This document shows positions 3,218 through 18,021 of a stretch of 64,000 nt of DNA, piece after piece; the stretch's first letter is position 1; each line of letters opens with the position of its first letter. Below the pieces are notes generated by a model. That model did not search any database. It worked only from the letters and a program-made list of their open reading frames with translations, and was not told where the DNA came from. The translations under genes and the position numbers were made by a program. The DNA lies in IMG/VR virus record IMGVR_UViG_3300028832_000003, positions 1 to 64,000 of that record; one strand, 5' to 3'. This stretch comes from a virus. Taxonomy: Duplodnaviria > Heunggongvirae > Uroviricota > Caudoviricetes.

Positions 3218-3640
3218 ATGGAAATTGTAATTGATATTCCTAAATCAACTTATGAATCGATAAATAAACATGGCTCTATTCAACGCGGAGTAGAATATGA
3301 AGATGTAATTATCGGAATTCAAGATGCGATTATTCTACCATATGAGCATGGTGCTTTAATCGATCGTGACGAATTAAGAGATACTTACAGAATGCCAGAA
3401 ATCAAGACCGCAAAAGTATTAGTGCCATATAAAACACATCTTGCGTCCGACTGTCCTAATTGTGGAAGAAACATACTTGATTATGTAGACGTGAATTGGG
3501 AAAAAGAATGTGATGAATATTATAAAATAACCAACTTTCATCCTTATTTTGACGGTGAGTTTTCTGGACATGAGTGGACTGTTGAATGTATCTGCCCATA
3601 TTGTGATACGGAATTTTCATATATTAACGGAGATGTGTGA
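3218..3640 (+). CDS. paralogue family 'VIDI...GHGDLIDRD' member 2 with C-terminal zinc ribbon
   Basis: MEIVIDIPKSTYESI...LPYEHGALIDRDEL, plus CPNCG...CPYCD. Confidence 0.55.
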   Translation: MEIVIDIPKSTYESINKHGSIQRGVEYEDVIIGIQDAIILPYEHGALIDRDELRDTYRMPEIKTAKVLVPYKTHLASDCPNCGRNILDYVDVNWEKECDEYYKITNFHPYFDGEFSGHEWTVECICPYCDTEFSYINGDV

Positions 3641-9660: not shown

Positions 9661-9842
9661 TATACGATGATGATACATTTGAGAGTTTTCGAATTTGCTT
9701 TGATCGTGTCCCAAGTAGAAAAAAAGATGAGGTAATTGAAGCATTAAAAGATTGCGGTTTTTCAGTCGTTTATTTGGATTCAGAAAATGAAGAAGTTATG
9801 TTTTGTTTGACTGCAAAACAAATTGATGATTTGTGTTATTAA
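9657..9842 (+). CDS. hypothetical protein
   Basis: ORF track; ATGA overlap. Confidence 0.4.
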   Translation: MIYDDDTFESFRICFDRVPSRKKDEVIEALKDCGFSVVYLDSENEEVMFCLTAKQIDDLCY

Positions 9843-9968
9843 AACAGAGAATCATACATTGTGAGGCGTGATACGGGTGCTATTTGAAACTGTCCTATGT
9901 GAAGTAAATCACTTAGCGAAACTCCTTAATGAGCAGATAATGGATTGACCGCACTGCCACCTCATTAT

Positions 9969-10041
9969 GCGAGAGTACCCAAGTGGTGATGGGGCTAGTC
10001 TTATATACTGGTTGCCGGGAGTTCGAATCTCTCCTCTCGTA
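9969..10041 (+). tRNA. tRNA-Ile (anticodon UAU, reads AUA)
   Basis: Hand-folded cloverleaf. Acceptor GCGAGAG/CTCTCGT. Anticodon stem CTAGT/ACTGG with loop CTTATAT. T-arm GGGAG-TTCGAAT-CTCTC. Discriminator A. 73 nt. Confidence 0.6.
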
Positions 10042-10043
10042 GT

Positions 10044-10196
10044 TCCTTTGTGGTGGAATAAGTAGACACATAGTAAGGGCAGAAATGTCAACAGGCTGAC
10101 GAGGTAGAGCGCGGAACAATGATCAAATTGATCATAAGGCAGGCGAGAGATGTTGGTCTGGCATCTCATGTAAGGTGAAAATCCTTACCAAAGGAA
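10044..10196 (+). ncRNA. tRNA-like RNA (~153 nt) with ~80-nt insertion between D-arm and anticodon-like arm
   Basis: Perfect 7-bp acceptor pairing TCCTTTG...CAAAGGA plus discriminator A. D-arm GTG-GAATAAGTAGA-CAC. T-arm TAAGG-TGAAAAT-CCTTA. Anticodon-like hairpin GATGT-TGGTCTG-GCATC. It is too long to be a canonical tRNA. Confidence 0.4.
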
Positions 10197-10381
10197 TAAC
10201 GGTTCATACAGCAAACAAATATAACAATCCTTTAAATTGTGAAACTGAACCGTGTTTTGGAAGTGAAACTGAAATAAAAGGACGCTTTTATTTTATGTGC
10301 GGCTGATGATCCGTGGGTTTCACATGTCAGTATATGGTAATAGGTGGTTAGGCTGACAATCCCCCCAACGGCAAATGAGCT

Positions 10382-10506
10382 TCCGTCGTGGCGAATAGGT
10401 AGACGCTTCAATAAGTGCGATTTTGTCGGTCAAACAAGCTGTATTTAAGATTGCTACAGCGGGTTGTAAAGGCAATCATGTGAGGTTCGAGTCCTCACCG
10501 ACGGAA
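10382..10506 (+). ncRNA. tRNA-like RNA (~125 nt), paralogue of 10044..10196
   Basis: Acceptor TCCGTCG...CGACGGA. D-arm GCG-AATAGGTAGA-CGC (same as the other element). T-arm TGAGG-TTCGAGT-CCTCA. The interior is a 6-bp stem with a 17-nt loop, not a 7-nt anticodon loop. Confidence 0.4.
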
Positions 10507-10521
10507 TTATAAAGGAGAGAA

Positions 10522-11034
10522 ATGATGCAACTAATTAGATTTATGAGCAGCGAAGAGTTTGAAAAACTTATGAGCGGCGATGTGCTTGAGAACACAATAG
10601 ATCACTGCGCTCAAGGTCATCACACCAATAGCGTTGGATTCTGTTTTATGGCAAGACATTCATCACCTTATTTTGAAGATGACAAAATCATATCTGACTT
10701 AATGTGGTTTTACTCATTTATGAGTGGCATTGTCTCAGATGACTATGTAGTAGTGTTCGAGTCTGGCGATACTGAACTCAAAAAAGGATATGGAATATAT
10801 GCAGTTCCGGACGGTGGGTTCTTCGACACAATGAGTGAAACGGAATATAGTATTAAGTCTTATGATAGAACGACACTAAAACCTATTTACTGGCTCTGCG
10901 GATGTGATGATTATCTTTACGAATGGTGTGAAGATGAGTTAAGAACAGAAGAGTGGGAAAAAGAACAAAACAAAAAGTTTGTTGAAAAAGAAAGGGCATT
11001 CTACGATGGCTGCAAAGTTGGAGAGGATTTATGA
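10522..11034 (+). CDS. hypothetical protein
   Basis: ORF track; RBS AAAGGAGAGAAATGATG. Confidence 0.55.
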   Translation: MMQLIRFMSSEEFEKLMSGDVLENTIDHCAQGHHTNSVGFCFMARHSSPYFEDDKIISDLMWFYSFMSGIVSDDYVVVFESGDTELKKGYGIYAVPDGGFFDTMSETEYSIKSYDRTTLKPIYWLCGCDDYLYEWCEDELRTEEWEKEQNKKFVEKERAFYDGCKVGEDL

Positions 11035-11894: not shown

Positions 11895-11966
11895 AGCCCC
11901 ATCGCCAAACGGAAAGGCATGTGATTTTGGTTCACATTATTCTAGGTTCGAATCCTAGTGGGGTTG
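11895..11966 (+). tRNA. tRNA-Gln (anticodon UUG)
   Basis: Acceptor AGCCCCA/TGGGGTT. D-arm GCC-AAACGGAAA-GGC. Anticodon stem TGTGA/TCACA with loop TTTTGGT. T-arm CTAGG-TTCGAAT-CCTAG. 72 nt. Confidence 0.65.
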
Positions 11967-12261: not shown

Positions 12262-12498
12262 CATTGAAATTTCAAAAAACAGTGAAAAATTGAAATTGCT
12301 CACAAAAATTTAAAAAGCAATTTCAATTTTAGAGAATTAAATAGTGCAACTTATTAGTCCATTTGACAGTACATCTTATCCATACTGTACACCTCCATGA
12401 AATATATGGTATGCCTATCTGAAAACCTCCCCCCTCACGGATAGGTGTACCGCCAAGTGGACTAATATAATTTATAAAATATCCAGGAGGTAGTAAAC

Positions 12499-17178: not shown

Positions 17179-18021
17179 GTGGAAGGTGAGCAATTTATAC
17201 TTGATGCAATGACTTGGAGTTTTTCCAGATTAAACAGTTTCTATAATTGTCCTCACGAATGGTACTGCCAATACATCCAAGATGACCGTGGTGAGAACGG
17301 CTTCTTTGGTGAATTTGGCGGTGCTTGTCATAAAGTTCTTGAGGAATATATTAAAGGCGATATCTCAATCTTCGATGTTTCTGAAAAGTACAAGGAGTAT
17401 TTTTCAGAGATGGTCGTTCACGATGCACCACCCAATAAGTATGTTGACTTAATGGAGTCATATTACAATAAGGGACTTGATTATTTTGATAACATTGATC
17501 TTGATTTGGAAAATTATGAGATATTGGGTGTTGAAAAAGAGGTAAGATTTGAGATTTCCGACAAGCCGTTTGTCGGTTATATTGATCTTCTTCTAAGAGA
17601 AAAGGAAACGGGGAAGATTATTATCTGCGACCACAAGAGTGCATCAATCAAGGTGTTAAAAAATGGGCAAGTAAGCAAGTCCGATCAGGAGCATTTCCGG
17701 GAGTTTGTCCGTCAGCTTTGTTTGTATGCTATTCCAGTAATTAAGGAATATGGTAAGGTTGACGAGTTGTGGTGGAACATGTTCAAGGAGCAGAAGTGGA
17801 TTAAAATTCCTTTTACTCAAGAAGATTATGATGAAGCGATTACGTGGGCAAGTAATACAATTAAGTTAATTGAAGCAGAGGAAGAGTACCCTTGTAATCC
17901 AGACTTCTTCTATTGTAATTATTTATGTTCGCAGCGTAATAATGCTTGTGAGTTTAAACCACAACCAATATCAAAAGAAGATCCTTCTGATGACTATTAT
18001 AATCCAGAGAATGGGGGGTGA
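17179..18021 (+). CDS. PD-(D/E)xK exonuclease, Cas4/RecB-like with C-terminal Cys cluster
   Basis: GYIDLL...DHK nuclease core; N-terminal CPHEWYC; C-terminal CNPDFFYCNYLC...C (Fe-S-type arrangement); GTG start after AAAGGAG. Confidence 0.65.
   Translation: MEGEQFILDAMTWSFSRLNSFYNCPHEWYCQYIQDDRGENGFFGEFGGACHKVLEEYIKGDISIFDVSEKYKEYFSEMVVHDAPPNKYVDLMESYYNKGLDYFDNIDLDLENYEILGVEKEVRFEISDKPFVGYIDLLLREKETGKIIICDHKSASIKVLKNGQVSKSDQEHFREFVRQLCLYAIPVIKEYGKVDELWWNMFKEQKWIKIPFTQEDYDEAITWASNTIKLIEAEEEYPCNPDFFYCNYLCSQRNNACEFKPQPISKEDPSDDYYNPENGG

What the first reader, a model, noticed from the sequence alone, without database searches (positions are those of the whole stretch)
10044..10506. Two paralogous 125-155-nt tRNA-like RNAs with large internal insertions, next to a canonical tRNA-Ile(UAU)
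A normal tRNA-Ile(UAU) is at 9969-10041. Both downstream elements have perfect 7-bp acceptor helices with a discriminator A, a near-identical D-arm (G(T/C)G-AATA(A/G)GTAGA-C(A/G)C) and a good T-arm. One extra nucleotide sits between T-stem and acceptor in both. They also carry ~80 nt (element 1) and ~35 nt (element 2) of extra sequence between the D-arm and an anticodon-like hairpin. The extra sequence is too short for a group I intron. The insertion is not at position 37/38. They resemble the tRNA-like stable RNAs of unknown function found in the T4 tRNA cluster. They could also be tRNAs with a novel intervening sequence, or processing or regulatory decoys (RNase P or anticodon-nuclease substrates). 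The whole 9845-10510 stretch is ORF-free and preceded by a GAGAAT promoter-like motif.
Basis: seen in the sequence. Interest (0 to 1): 0.6.

Follow-up and report, generated by a model that had tools for sequence, protein, structure and literature searches.

The report
Phage tRNA-like RNAs without anticodons
The two elements are real genes for tRNA-shaped RNAs, derived from tRNA-Leu, that keep the acceptor arm and the "elbow" but carry a variable insert where the anticodon arm should be; they belong to a large, unannotated family in phages of Gram-positive bacteria and probably act as tRNA mimics, not decoders.

Summary
Observation confirmed. E1 (10044-10196) and E2 (10382-10506) each have a 7-bp acceptor helix, a tRNA-Leu-type D-arm and a T-arm. 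They follow tRNA-Ile(UAU) on the same strand. ARAGORN and all 4227 Rfam models miss them.

They are not chance. These scans revealed a family with an invariant scaffold:
- a 7-bp acceptor helix;
- U8-G9 and a 3-bp D-stem with loop AAUAGGUAGA;
- an insert, giving elements of 71-301 nt overall;
- (C)AU and a 6-bp T-stem with loop UGCAAAU;
- no encoded CCA.

A covariance model built without the window sequences scores E1 at 60.6 bits and E2 at 58.2 bits (E about 1e-13). It also finds a weaker third copy, E3 (27710-27833). Helices covary. A D-loop G and a T-loop C covary as G:C to A:U (p = 6e-18), so the tRNA elbow forms.

Members lie unannotated in cultured phages (phi3T, SPO1-like, Lactobacillus Sha1 and Lenus). 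They sit in tRNA clusters or between the late activator gene and HNH/terminase.

No anticodon arm is conserved, so these are neither intron-containing tRNAs nor detectable T4 rnaC/rnaD homologues. Function is inferred, not shown: a processed, non-decoding tRNA mimic. E2 keeps the full LeuRS identity set.

The parts
9843..9859 (+). AACAGAGAAT-type promoter-like motif about 110 nt upstream of tRNA-Ile. Possible start of the tRNA-Ile/E1/E2 transcription unit.
   Evidence: Sequence. AGAGAAT(T)A motifs recur upstream of genes at 12331, 17111, 27695, 27915 and 33755. Promoter function is inferred, not shown.
9969..10041 (+). Canonical tRNA-Ile(UAU), 2 nt upstream of E1.
   Evidence: ARAGORN. Rfam RF00005 at 60.7 bits.
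10044..10196 (+). E1, an anticodon-less tRNA-like RNA of 153 nt. Acceptor 10044-10050 with 10189-10195; D-arm 10053-10069 (D-loop GAAUAAGUAGA); insert 10070-10166; CAU 10167-10169; 6-bp T-arm 10170-10188 (loop UGAAAAU); discriminator A10196.
   Evidence: Family model R1 at 60.6 bits, E = 4e-14, full length. The minimum-free-energy fold contains the acceptor, D and T helices, z = -2.5. The D-loop A with T-loop A combination is rare: 1 of 52 AAG-type members, L406.
10147..10166 (+).
   Evidence: Predicted. The same module with one compensatory pair change occurs in tRNA-like elements of two gut Clostridia MAGs, L213 and L232. It is not a general family feature.
10197..10381 (+). Spacer of 185 nt between E1 and E2. 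No element recognised.
   Evidence: Fold is not better than shuffles, z = -1.1. No R1 or Rfam match.
10382..10506 (+). E2, an anticodon-less tRNA-like RNA of 125 nt. Acceptor 10382-10388 with 10499-10505; D-arm 10391-10406 (D-loop AAUAGGUAGA); insert 10407-10476; CAU 10477-10479; 6-bp T-arm 10480-10498 (canonical loop UUCGAGU); discriminator A10506. The ribosome-binding site and start codon of ORF 10522-11034 follow 16 nt later.
   Evidence: R1 at 58.2 bits, E = 2e-13. Fold z = -2.6. ARAGORN in intron mode calls it tRNA-Leu(UAA) with a 32-nt intron, but with only 3 good anticodon-stem pairs.
11895..11966 (+). Canonical tRNA-Gln(UUG) in the same gene cluster.
   Evidence: tRNA-Gln(UUG) and tRNA-Ile(UAU) are also frequent neighbours of family members elsewhere.
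27710..27833 (+). E3, a probable third and divergent member. Acceptor AGGUCGU 27710-27716 with ACGACCU 27826-27832 (7 of 7); T-arm 27806-27825 with one bulged A and loop UGCAAAG; atypical 33-nt D-loop; discriminator A27833.
   Evidence: R1 at 22.2 bits, E = 7e-4. Sequence. It lies in an intergenic gap. It scores below a true phage tRNA-Leu(UAA) (29 bits), so membership is tentative.
27861..27895 (+). Terminator-like hairpin plus U-run about 28 nt after E3.
   Evidence: Read directly from the sequence (GUAGGCGUCCGGUCAAACGGACGUCUAC UUUUUU). Family members have such terminators within 150 nt downstream in 32 of 147 cases against 4 of 134 controls.

Best explanation
E1 and E2, and probably E3, are genes for non-decoding, tRNA-Leu-derived tRNA-like RNAs. 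They belong to a large family carried by phages and prophages, mainly of Bacillota.

Shown here:
- The RNA keeps the acceptor helix (7 bp), U8, the class II D-arm, U48, a T-arm lengthened to 6 bp, and a D-loop:T-loop Watson-Crick pair. It therefore folds into the tRNA L-shape.
- The anticodon and variable arms are replaced by a heterogeneous insert, so it cannot read codons.

Inferred:
- In the window the elements are co-transcribed with tRNA-Ile from an upstream promoter.
- Host RNase P cuts at the 5' side. RNase Z cuts after the discriminator, and CCA is then added because none is encoded.
- The stable product acts as a tRNA mimic towards a tRNA-binding host or defence factor. It would work either as a competitor or decoy that cannot be cut in an anticodon loop and cannot enter the ribosome, or as a non-ribosomal amino-acid acceptor.
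- E2 has every bacterial LeuRS identity element, so it is the best candidate for leucylation. E1 lacks the D-loop G and C56, so it is not.
- The 13-bp acceptor/T stack should disfavour EF-Tu.
For: Family and structure:
- A D-arm pattern scan of viral contigs gave about 40 normal tRNA-Leu(UAA) and about 80 non-tRNA hits that share the scaffold.
- A T-arm pattern scan of genomes gave 120 loci; of the first 100 loci searched with the model, 104 matches came back, several loci with 2-3 tandem copies.
- In a 59-sequence alignment 99.3% of stem cells are paired and 11 of 16 pairs show double changes. The unconstrained T-stem pair 108:122 is AU 34, CG 8, GC 7, UA 6.
- The acceptor helix is 7 bp as a rule: in 64 of 123 members it does not extend, and longer extensions fall off about as chance predicts.
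- Tertiary covariation: D-loop G with T-loop C 48:0; D-loop A with T-loop U 40, C 11, A 1; Fisher p = 6e-18.
- Model R1, built without the window, scores E1 at 60.6 and E2 at 58.2 bits.

RNA rather than DNA site:
- G.U 48 against A.C 6 in the stems.
- Always the same strand as neighbouring genes and tRNAs.
- Terminators downstream in 32 of 147 against 4 of 134 controls.

Fit to tRNA processing:
- No encoded CCA. Position +74 is U in 60%. Position -4 is A in 54%.
- E1 starts 2 nt after tRNA-Ile.

Not a decoder:
- No Rfam tRNA, tmRNA or tRNA-Sec hit at E <= 10.
- First pair is U-A, G-C or A-U and the discriminator varies, whereas true phage tRNA-Leu(UAA) have G1, A73 and a 5-bp T-stem.
- L252 has both a tRNA-Leu(UAA) and a member.

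LeuRS:
- Identity is A73 plus U8-A14, G18-U55, G19-C56 and variable-arm orientation. Deleting the whole anticodon arm costs only 2.5-fold in affinity (PMC2377443).
Against: - No expression, processing or binding data exist for any member. All functional steps are inferred.
- The discriminator is A in only 53% and position 55 is G in most members. A73 changes cut leucylation 45- to 143-fold, and the G18-U55 contact is critical in the A. aeolicus study. Leucylation cannot be the general function.
- No protein partner co-occurs consistently, so the target is unknown.
- Inserts are not on the whole more stable than shuffles (median z = -0.35), so whether they matter is open.
- The acceptor pairs in my sets were partly selected for pairing (at least 6 of 7), and the pattern scans fixed the D-arm or the T-arm sequence. 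Conservation of those segments is therefore overstated by ascertainment.
- The Fisher test is not corrected for relatedness.
Confidence: 0.6

Rival explanations
1. A tRNA scaffold for a functional insert. The conserved tRNA body only provides processing and stability, as in the engineered 'tRNA scaffold' used to express RNAs. The variable insert would be the active part: an sRNA, an aptamer or a protein-binding module that differs between phages.
For: - The same scaffold occurs with quite different inserts in related phages (GUGCUUG-type in L004, L017, L031, L054, L076, L090).
- Several copies with different inserts occur in one genome (E1, E2 and E3 here; L195 with three).
- Some insert modules recur with compensatory changes: L054/L005/L110, L017/L063, the E1 hairpin in L213 and L232, and a UAAAACGAGGCGUC...ACGCCUAU module in L044, L137 and L159.
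Against: - Some members carry only about 15-25 nt between D-arm and T-arm (L222 at 71 nt overall, L010 at 76 nt).
- Inserts are not generally more stable than shuffles.
- No antisense match of the E1, E2 or E3 inserts to the window stands out from chance (the best, 13 nt, has E = 0.05).
- No Rfam aptamer lies in any insert.
- A mere scaffold would not need loop sequences that vary so little in the pattern-selected samples.
Confidence: 0.15
2. A cis-acting processing or regulatory signal ('t-element'). The tRNA-like fold only recruits RNase P and RNase Z to cut polycistronic transcripts. This would define the 5' end of the downstream mRNA (ORF 10522, or the late operon in temperate phages), or form part of an attenuator in front of the late genes.
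For: - E2 ends 16 nt before the start codon of ORF 10522.
- In temperate phages the element lies between the late activator gene (ArpU or RinA type) and HNH/terS/terL on the same strand.
- In Sha1 a terminator sits between the element and the HNH gene, with no room for a promoter after it.
Against: - Many members lie inside tRNA clusters of virulent phages, or have their own terminator and no downstream gene to serve.
- Tandem arrays occur.
- RNase P and Z do not need a Leu-type D-arm, a G55 T-loop or a 6-bp T-stem, yet these are conserved.
Confidence: 0.15
3. A true tRNA-Leu(UAA) interrupted by a new kind of short intervening sequence that is removed to give a decoding tRNA.
For: - ARAGORN in intron mode calls E2 tRNA-Leu(UAA) with a 32-nt intron, and a UUUAAGA string lies in a hairpin loop.
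- The D-arm is identical to that of phage tRNA-Leu(UAA).
- Group I introns do occur in phage tRNA-Leu(UAA) (L014, L030).
Against: - The proposed anticodon stem has 3 good pairs.
- E1 gets no such call.
- Family members share no anticodon arm, and some have no room for one.
- The 6-bp T-stem, non-G1 starts and variable discriminator differ from the true tRNA-Leu found in the same scans.
- No group I intron model matches.
- L252 and L015 carry a normal tRNA-Leu(UAA) beside a member.
Confidence: 0.04
4. Decaying tRNA pseudogenes or chance hairpins.
For: Standard tRNA tools and Rfam reject them. E1 has lost the D-loop G and C56.
Against: E values of 1e-13 against an independent family model. Pairings are maintained by compensatory changes across hosts from Bacillus to Clostridia.
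Confidence: 0.02
5. A DNA-level site, such as a packaging (cos/pac) or attachment site made of inverted repeats, rather than an RNA.
For: Position just upstream of HNH/terS/terL in temperate phages. In phiJL-1 the element ends 2 nt from the end of the linear genome record.
Against: - G.U is tolerated but A.C is not (48 against 6), which fits only RNA of this strand.
- Members also lie in tRNA clusters far from packaging genes (and this window).
- Intrinsic terminators follow.
- The D-loop and T-loop covary like an RNA tertiary pair.
Confidence: 0.03

Closest known systems
Class II tRNA-Leu(UAA) of phages and bacteria
   Same: - Near-identical D-arm (UG-GCG-GAAUAGGUAGA-CGC), 7-bp acceptor, U8, A14, A15/U48 and a T-loop with U54 and A58.
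- Gene position in tRNA clusters.
- Very probably the evolutionary source of the family.
   Different: - No anticodon arm and no regular variable arm.
- T-stem of 6 bp, not 5. T-loop UGCAAAU (G55) rather than UUCGAUU.
- First pair often U-A or A-U. Discriminator is A in only 53%.
- Below the Rfam tRNA threshold even at E <= 10.
Phage T4 stable RNAs species 1 (rnaC) and species 2 (rnaD)
   Same: - RNAs of 119-139 nt, of unknown function, encoded head-to-tail with tRNA genes.
- rnaC ends in a canonical T-arm plus an acceptor-like 3' strand (read).
- Same idea: a tRNA-like shell around a large internal region.
   Different: - The family model gives no hit in the T4 region at E <= 10.
- rnaC has a 5-bp T-stem and loop UUCGAAU.
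- I could not recognise a Leu-type D-arm in rnaC or rnaD.
- Their hosts are Proteobacteria. This is analogy, not shown homology.
tRNA-like domain of tmRNA
   Same: A non-decoding RNA whose ends form an acceptor/T-arm unit around a large internal domain. It is processed by RNase P and aminoacylated without an anticodon (established knowledge; PMC3985003 abstract).
   Different: - tmRNA has no true D-stem, a G3:U70 alanine identity, a tag reading frame and pseudoknots.
- ARAGORN's tmRNA search on the whole window reports none.
- No Rfam family other than tRNA reaches its threshold anywhere in the window, and none matches this region even at E <= 10.
Bacterial and phage Y RNAs (YrlA)
   Same: A tRNA-derived D-arm, T-arm and acceptor-like stem with tertiary contacts. 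Some are cut by RNase P and receive CCA. Also found in phages (PMC4201824).
   Different: - Permuted topology. [quoted passage not shown]
- YrlA is encoded next to Ro60 (Rsr). No such gene appeared among the commonest neighbour gene clusters.
- No Rfam match.
tRNA-like processing elements: plant mitochondrial t-elements, MALAT1 mascRNA
   Same: Acceptor/T-arm mimics without decoding function that RNase P and RNase Z recognise (established knowledge).
   Different: Those are eukaryotic or organellar, are not derived from tRNA-Leu, and mainly define the ends of the flanking transcript. Here many copies are stand-alone genes with their own terminator.
tRNA-Sec
   Same: A 13-bp acceptor/T stack and a long extra arm. 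The 13-bp stack is known to exclude EF-Tu (established knowledge).
   Different: tRNA-Sec is 8/5 in bacteria, with a 6-bp D-stem and a UCA anticodon. Here the split is 7/6, the D-stem is 3 bp and there is no anticodon. No Rfam hit at E <= 10.

Membership tests
Canonical tRNA (Rfam RF00005 / ARAGORN) | Cloverleaf with a 5-bp anticodon stem and 7-nt loop; score at or above the 29-bit gathering threshold. | tested here: not met
   Only 9969-10041 and 11895-11966 are found. Nothing overlaps E1 or E2 even at E <= 10.
Canonical tRNA (Rfam RF00005 / ARAGORN) | A 7-bp acceptor plus 5-bp T-stem (12-bp stack). | tested here: not met
   The acceptor is 7 bp, but the T-stem has 6 pairs: G10170:C10188 and G10480:C10498. 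That pair is G:C in 57 of 59 members.
Intron-containing tRNA-Leu(UAA) (group I intron) | Intron in the anticodon loop with a group I core; exons rebuild a 5-bp anticodon stem with a UAA anticodon. | tested here: not met
   No group I intron match. The inserts of 97 and 70 nt are too short. ARAGORN intron mode gives E2 a 3-pair stem and gives E1 nothing.
tmRNA | tRNA-like domain plus a tag reading frame and pseudoknots. | tested here: not met
   ARAGORN's tmRNA search and Rfam find none.
T4 rnaC/rnaD stable RNAs | Sequence and structure similarity to T4 species 1 and 2. | tested here: not met
   Model R1 has no match in T4 69000-75000 at E <= 10. No T4-based model was built, so the reverse test was not run.
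YrlA / bacterial Y RNA | Ends in a Ro60-binding stem, a closed acceptor-like stem-loop, and a gene next to Ro60 (Rsr). | tested here: not met
   Here the ends form the acceptor helix. No Rfam match. No Ro60-like gene among the commonest neighbour gene clusters. YrlA topology taken from PMC4201824.
New family defined here (model R1): anticodon-less tRNA-Leu-like RNAs | 7-bp acceptor helix flush with U8-G9 on the 5' side and with the T-stem on the 3' side. | tested here: met
   E1, E2 and E3 all pair 7 of 7. In the family 64 of 123 helices do not extend, and longer extensions fall off about as chance predicts.
New family defined here (model R1): anticodon-less tRNA-Leu-like RNAs | 3-bp D-stem with loop (G)AAUA(G/A)GUAGA. 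| tested here: met
   Met by E1 and E2. Not met by E3, whose D-loop is 33 nt without GUAGA.
New family defined here (model R1): anticodon-less tRNA-Leu-like RNAs | (C)AU, then a 6-bp T-stem closed by G:C, then a 7-nt loop U-G/U-C-R-A-R-U. | tested here: met
   E1 has loop UGAAAAU (rare variant). E2 has UUCGAGU (minority variant). E3 has UGCAAAG with a bulge in the stem.
New family defined here (model R1): anticodon-less tRNA-Leu-like RNAs | Significant full-length score with a model built without the candidate. | tested here: met
   E1 60.6 bits, E2 58.2 bits, E3 22.2 bits (E = 7e-4). A true tRNA-Leu(UAA) scores 29 bits.
New family defined here (model R1): anticodon-less tRNA-Leu-like RNAs | Watson-Crick pair between the D-loop (G or A) and T-loop position 56 (C or U). 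| tested here: inconclusive
   Family: 48 G:C, 40 A:U, 11 A/C, 1 A/A. E2 has G and C. E1 has A and A, so the pair is not formed as Watson-Crick in E1.
Leucine-accepting RNA (LeuRS substrate) | A73, U8-A14, G18-U55, G19-C56 and a regular acceptor helix (PMC2377443). | tested here: inconclusive
   By sequence E2 has all of them. E1 lacks the D-loop G and C56. E3 lacks a normal D-loop.
Leucine-accepting RNA (LeuRS substrate) | Actual aminoacylation by LeuRS. | not testable with these tools
   Requires a biochemical charging assay.

The most novel reading that the evidence does not exclude
Phages of Gram-positive bacteria carry a widespread, so far unannotated class of anticodon-less tRNA-Leu mimics. 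These are matured like tRNAs and are used in trans. One possibility is an uncleavable decoy that soaks up tRNA-targeting defence or toxin enzymes, such as anticodon nucleases or enzymes that modify the acceptor end. Another is a dedicated aminoacyl (Leu) carrier kept off the ribosome by a 13-bp acceptor/T stack. Either would be a new RNA-based layer of phage-host conflict, directly testable in phi3T, SPO1-like and Lactobacillus phages.
Probability: 0.25. Interest if true: 0.85.

Novelty: new variant of a known kind. Interest (0 to 1): 0.7.

Why it matters
- tRNA-like stable RNAs of phages have been known since T4 species 1 and 2, yet their function is still open.
- This family is abundant. A third scan, for one D-loop variant alone, gave 71 loci.
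- It is structurally well defined. It is present but unannotated in genetically tractable phages: Bacillus phi3T, SPO1-like Goe3 and SBSphiJ, and Lactobacillus plantarum phages. The question therefore becomes experimentally accessible.
- It shows that tRNA finders and Rfam 15 miss a whole class of tRNA-derived genes. Some of these are currently overlaid by spurious 'hypothetical protein' calls.
- It offers a natural example of a tRNA body that tolerates large insertions in place of the anticodon arm, and sometimes in the D-loop and T-loop.
- If the RNAs prove to be decoys or amino-acid carriers, that would add an RNA-based mechanism to phage counter-defence.

Tried and rejected
- Similar DNA in cultured phages for 9800-10550: none.
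- Relatives of the two flanking proteins in viral contigs: none. No orthologous locus could be compared. The only other contig with the downstream protein is 100% identical.
- Relatives of the nearby AAA protein: 17 loci, but only one (L252) carries a strong member, so the tRNA region is accessory.
- Rfam at permissive thresholds on the window region and on 23 family loci: only ordinary tRNAs.
- Nine literature searches, including one for the conserved sequence strings, found no description of the family. The library holds only open-access papers, so this does not prove novelty. The 10,006 candidate viral RNAs of PMC10690425 could not be compared by sequence.
- A common insert architecture (a CUUA-loop-UAAG stub hairpin plus a closing stem before CAUG): seen in a subset with covariation, but only 15 of 112 have the stub and 35 of 112 a closing stem. 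Rejected as a family rule.
- The E1 hairpin 17-mer as a probe: 75 viral hits, but about 70 lie in a conserved protein-coding sequence and are unrelated to tRNA-like elements.
- Antisense targets of the inserts within the window: no antisense match stands out from chance (the best, 13 nt, has E = 0.05).
- A conserved protein partner: none. Neighbours are generic late-region genes.
- T4 rnaC/rnaD homology: not detected.
Full report
**1. The observation**

The window is a phage-like contig. It encodes a C5 methylase, a primase-helicase, a split DNA polymerase III alpha, NrdD, and tail genes on the other strand. ARAGORN and Rfam find two tRNAs: Ile(UAU) at 9969-10041 and Gln(UUG) at 11895-11966.

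Two nucleotides after tRNA-Ile starts E1 (10044-10196). E2 (10382-10506) follows 185 nt later. Each has these features:
- a perfect 7-bp terminal helix and discriminator A;
- U8-G9;
- a 3-bp D-stem with a (G)AAUA(A/G)GUAGA loop;
- a T-arm.

The 'extra' C between T-stem and acceptor pairs with the G that precedes the T-stem, so the T-stem has six pairs. The minimum-free-energy fold of E1 contains the acceptor, D and T helices; that of E2 contains the acceptor and T helices but not the D-arm. Both score z of about -2.5. No + strand ORF of 50 aa or more lies in 9842-10522. No Rfam family matches either element, even at E <= 10.

**2. It is a family, not a coincidence**

- About 40 are ordinary tRNA-Leu(UAA) with exactly this D-arm.
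- About 80 are not tRNAs. They share a fixed architecture: 7 nt, UG, GCG-GAAUAGGUAGA-CGC, an insert of very variable length, (C)AU, a 6-bp stem closed by G:C around the loop UGCAAAU, then at once the complement of the first 7 nt.

The reciprocal scan of one genome per species with the T-arm string also hit its limit. It returned mostly Bacillota: Clostridia MAGs, Lactobacillaceae, Weissella, Leuconostoc, Bacillus, Paenibacillus, Listeria and Enterococcus. A few MAGs were assigned to other phyla.

In a 59-sequence alignment 99.3% of stem positions pair, and 11 of 16 pairs show changes on both sides. Sliding the partners by 1-3 columns drops pairing to about 40%. The acceptor pairs were partly selected for pairing by my extraction. 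The middle T-stem pair was unconstrained and still covaries (AU 34, CG 8, GC 7, UA 6).

The terminal helix does not extend in 64 of 123 members, and longer extensions fall off about as chance predicts. Members are 71-301 nt long, with a median of 125.

**3. Membership of E1, E2 and a third copy**

A covariance model was built from that alignment, which excludes the window. Its scores in the window are:

| Element | Coordinates | Bits | E-value |
|---|---|---|---|
| E1 | 10044-10196 | 60.6 | 4e-14 |
| E2 | 10382-10506 | 58.2 | 2e-13 |
| E3 | 27710-27833 | 22.2 | 7e-4 |

Both E1 and E2 match full length. With filters off nothing else reaches E < 0.1, and the two real tRNAs of the window do not score.

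E3 has 7 of 7 acceptor pairs and a UGCAAAG T-loop. It also has an atypical D-loop, a terminator-like hairpin about 28 nt downstream, and an AGAGAAU motif directly upstream. A genuine tRNA-Leu(UAA) scores 29 bits with the model, so I call E3 probable only.

**4. The fold is tRNA-like in three dimensions**

A scan for the D-loop variant AAUAAGUAGA, which is the E1 type, gave 71 loci.

| D-loop base | T-loop C | T-loop U | T-loop A |
|---|---|---|---|
| G (AAUAGGUAGA) | 48 | 0 | 0 |
| A (AAUAAGUAGA) | 11 | 40 | 1 |

Fisher p = 6e-18, not corrected for relatedness. This G:C to A:U switch is the signature of the D-loop:T-loop Watson-Crick pair of the tRNA elbow. U8, A14, A15 with U48 (the U of CAUG), U54 and A58 are also kept.

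E1 has the rare A with A combination, seen once elsewhere in L406. E2 has G with C and a fully canonical UUCGAGU loop.

**5. RNA, not a DNA site; a gene, not debris**

- G.U occurs 48 times and A.C 6 times in the stems.
- Elements always lie on the strand of the neighbouring genes and tRNAs.
- A strict intrinsic terminator follows within 150 nt in 32 of 147 cases, against 4 of 134 controls.
- Tandem arrays of two or three copies occur.
- No CCA is encoded. The base after the discriminator is U in 60%, and position -4 is A in 54%. From my own knowledge of B. subtilis RNase Z and RNase P preferences, this fits tRNA-type maturation. That step is inferred.

**6. Where it sits**

In cultured phages the element is present but unannotated:
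- L. plantarum phage Sha1: between rinA and HNH/terS/terL, followed by a terminator.
- Phage Lenus: between two tRNA-Arg genes.
- Bacillus phi3T: after yonO and yonN, partly under a 'hypothetical protein' call.
- SPO1-like Goe3: in the tRNA cluster.

The model scores these at 67-80 bits.

Across 157 loci the commonest neighbours, all on the same strand, are:
- upstream: ArpU-like (19 loci) or RinA-like (15 loci) late regulators;
- downstream: HNH (19), large terminase (27 + 12) and portal (16).

No specific protein partner emerges. The acceptor sequence tracks the host genus.

**7. What it is not**

- *An intron-containing tRNA.* ARAGORN's intron mode proposes tRNA-Leu(UAA) with a 32-nt intron for E2 only, with three good stem pairs. 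No anticodon arm is shared in the family. Some members have only about 15-25 nt between the arms. True tRNA-Leu(UAA) from the same scans have G1, A73, a 5-bp T-stem and UUCGAUU. L252, a relative of this phage, has both a tRNA-Leu(UAA) and a 73-bit member.
- *T4 rnaC/rnaD.* No match.
- *YrlA.* That RNA has a permuted topology and a Ro60-linked gene.
- *tmRNA or tRNA-Sec.* No hits.

**8. How it most likely works**

Shown: an L-shaped tRNA body without an anticodon, encoded like a tRNA gene.

Inferred for the window:
- Transcription of tRNA-Ile, E1, E2 and ORF 10522 as one unit.
- RNase P cuts before U10044 and U10382.
- RNase Z cuts after A10196 and A10506, and CCA is then added.

The product cannot decode. 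Its 13-bp acceptor/T stack should disfavour EF-Tu (established for tRNA-Sec; inferred here).

The inserts are heterogeneous and on the whole no more stable than shuffles. The D-loop and T-loop vary little, although these segments were used to find the members. I therefore place the function in the scaffold. On this reading it is a tRNA mimic acting on a tRNA-binding factor, either as a decoy or as an amino-acid acceptor.

Bacterial LeuRS needs A73, U8-A14, G18-U55 and G19-C56, and barely needs the anticodon arm (PMC2377443). E2 has all of these. E1 does not. Most family members have G55, and only 53% have A73. Leucylation is therefore plausible for E2 but cannot be the general rule.

Two rivals stay open at about 0.15 each: a scaffold for a functional insert, and a pure processing or attenuation signal.

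**9. Novelty and limits**

Rfam 15 has no model for the family. Nine full-text searches found no description. Subscription literature and unpublished motif collections were not searchable.

The kind of object, a phage tRNA-like stable RNA, is known. This scaffold, its spread and its elbow covariation appear to be new.

All functional statements are inferences from sequence. The scans fixed either the D-arm or the T-arm, so family diversity is underestimated and conservation of those segments is overestimated.

Noticed in passing
window 27710-27833 (+), terminator-like hairpin 27861-27895: A third, divergent tRNA-like element (E3). It has 7 of 7 acceptor pairs, a UGCAAAG T-loop and an unusual 33-nt D-loop. 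It has its own terminator-like hairpin, and an AGAGAAUUAUAUUAU motif ends right at its first base, so transcription may start at +1 with no need for RNase P.
   Followed up: partly
window 9846, 12331, 17111, 27695, 27915, 33755 (+), also 3813 and 6660: A recurring A-rich motif, AA(A/C)AGAGAAU(U/C)A-N-AUA, in short gaps just upstream of + strand genes and of the tRNA/tRNA-like units. It may be a phage-specific promoter. A stricter 17-nt pattern was not enriched over shuffles (8 found against 4.4 expected).
   Followed up: partly
window 18018-19364, 19456-20346, 20498-22627 (+): DNA polymerase III alpha is split into a PHP/N-terminal gene and a finger-domain gene. A 296-aa ORF with no Pfam match lies between them. 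This could be a mobile insertion or a natural split.
   Followed up: partly
L241 (Lactobacillus phage Sha1) about 3279-3340: A second, roughly 62-nt mini tRNA-like element about 160 nt upstream of the main one. Acceptor AUCGCUG with CGGCGAU, a GGC-UAAUUGGCAA-GCC D-arm, and a UAGG-UUCGAGG-CCUA T-arm. There is almost nothing in between.
   Followed up: no
L123, L127, L166, L193, L194, L203, L228 (D-loop); L057, L094, L117, L046 (T-loop): Some family members carry an additional hairpin insertion of 30-180 nt inside the D-loop (between AAUAG and GUAGAC) or inside the T-loop (UG-[ACUAUACGAGU...ACUCGU]-CAAAU). These sites are at the elbow itself.
   Followed up: no
L252 3840-3905 and 4265-4395: The tRNA cluster of a relative of this phage holds further odd tRNA-like stretches with GGUUCGAAUCC-type T-arms. 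ARAGORN does not call them.
   Followed up: no
L045, L056, L148, L191, L355, L377, L407: A recurrent insert of about 130 nt, giving elements of 157-159 nt, contains an internal second T-arm-like hairpin (CGGUUCGAUUCCG) and conserved strings (CAGAUAG, GAAAUA(A/G)CUGA). It looks like a distinct subfamily with a nested tRNA-like module.
   Followed up: no
window 10074-10088 and 35235-35249 (+): A 15-nt exact direct repeat (UAAGGGCAGAAAUGU) between the E1 insert and a region that looks protein-coding. It was E = 0.004 within the window and is unexplained; it may be chance.
   Followed up: no
L243 (Bacillus phage phi3T) 3000-3135; H41 (phage KLEB27-1); H9/H10 (phage LP65): In several GenBank phage records the element is overlapped by short 'hypothetical protein' CDS calls, for example phi3T_57. 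These are probably spurious.
   Followed up: no
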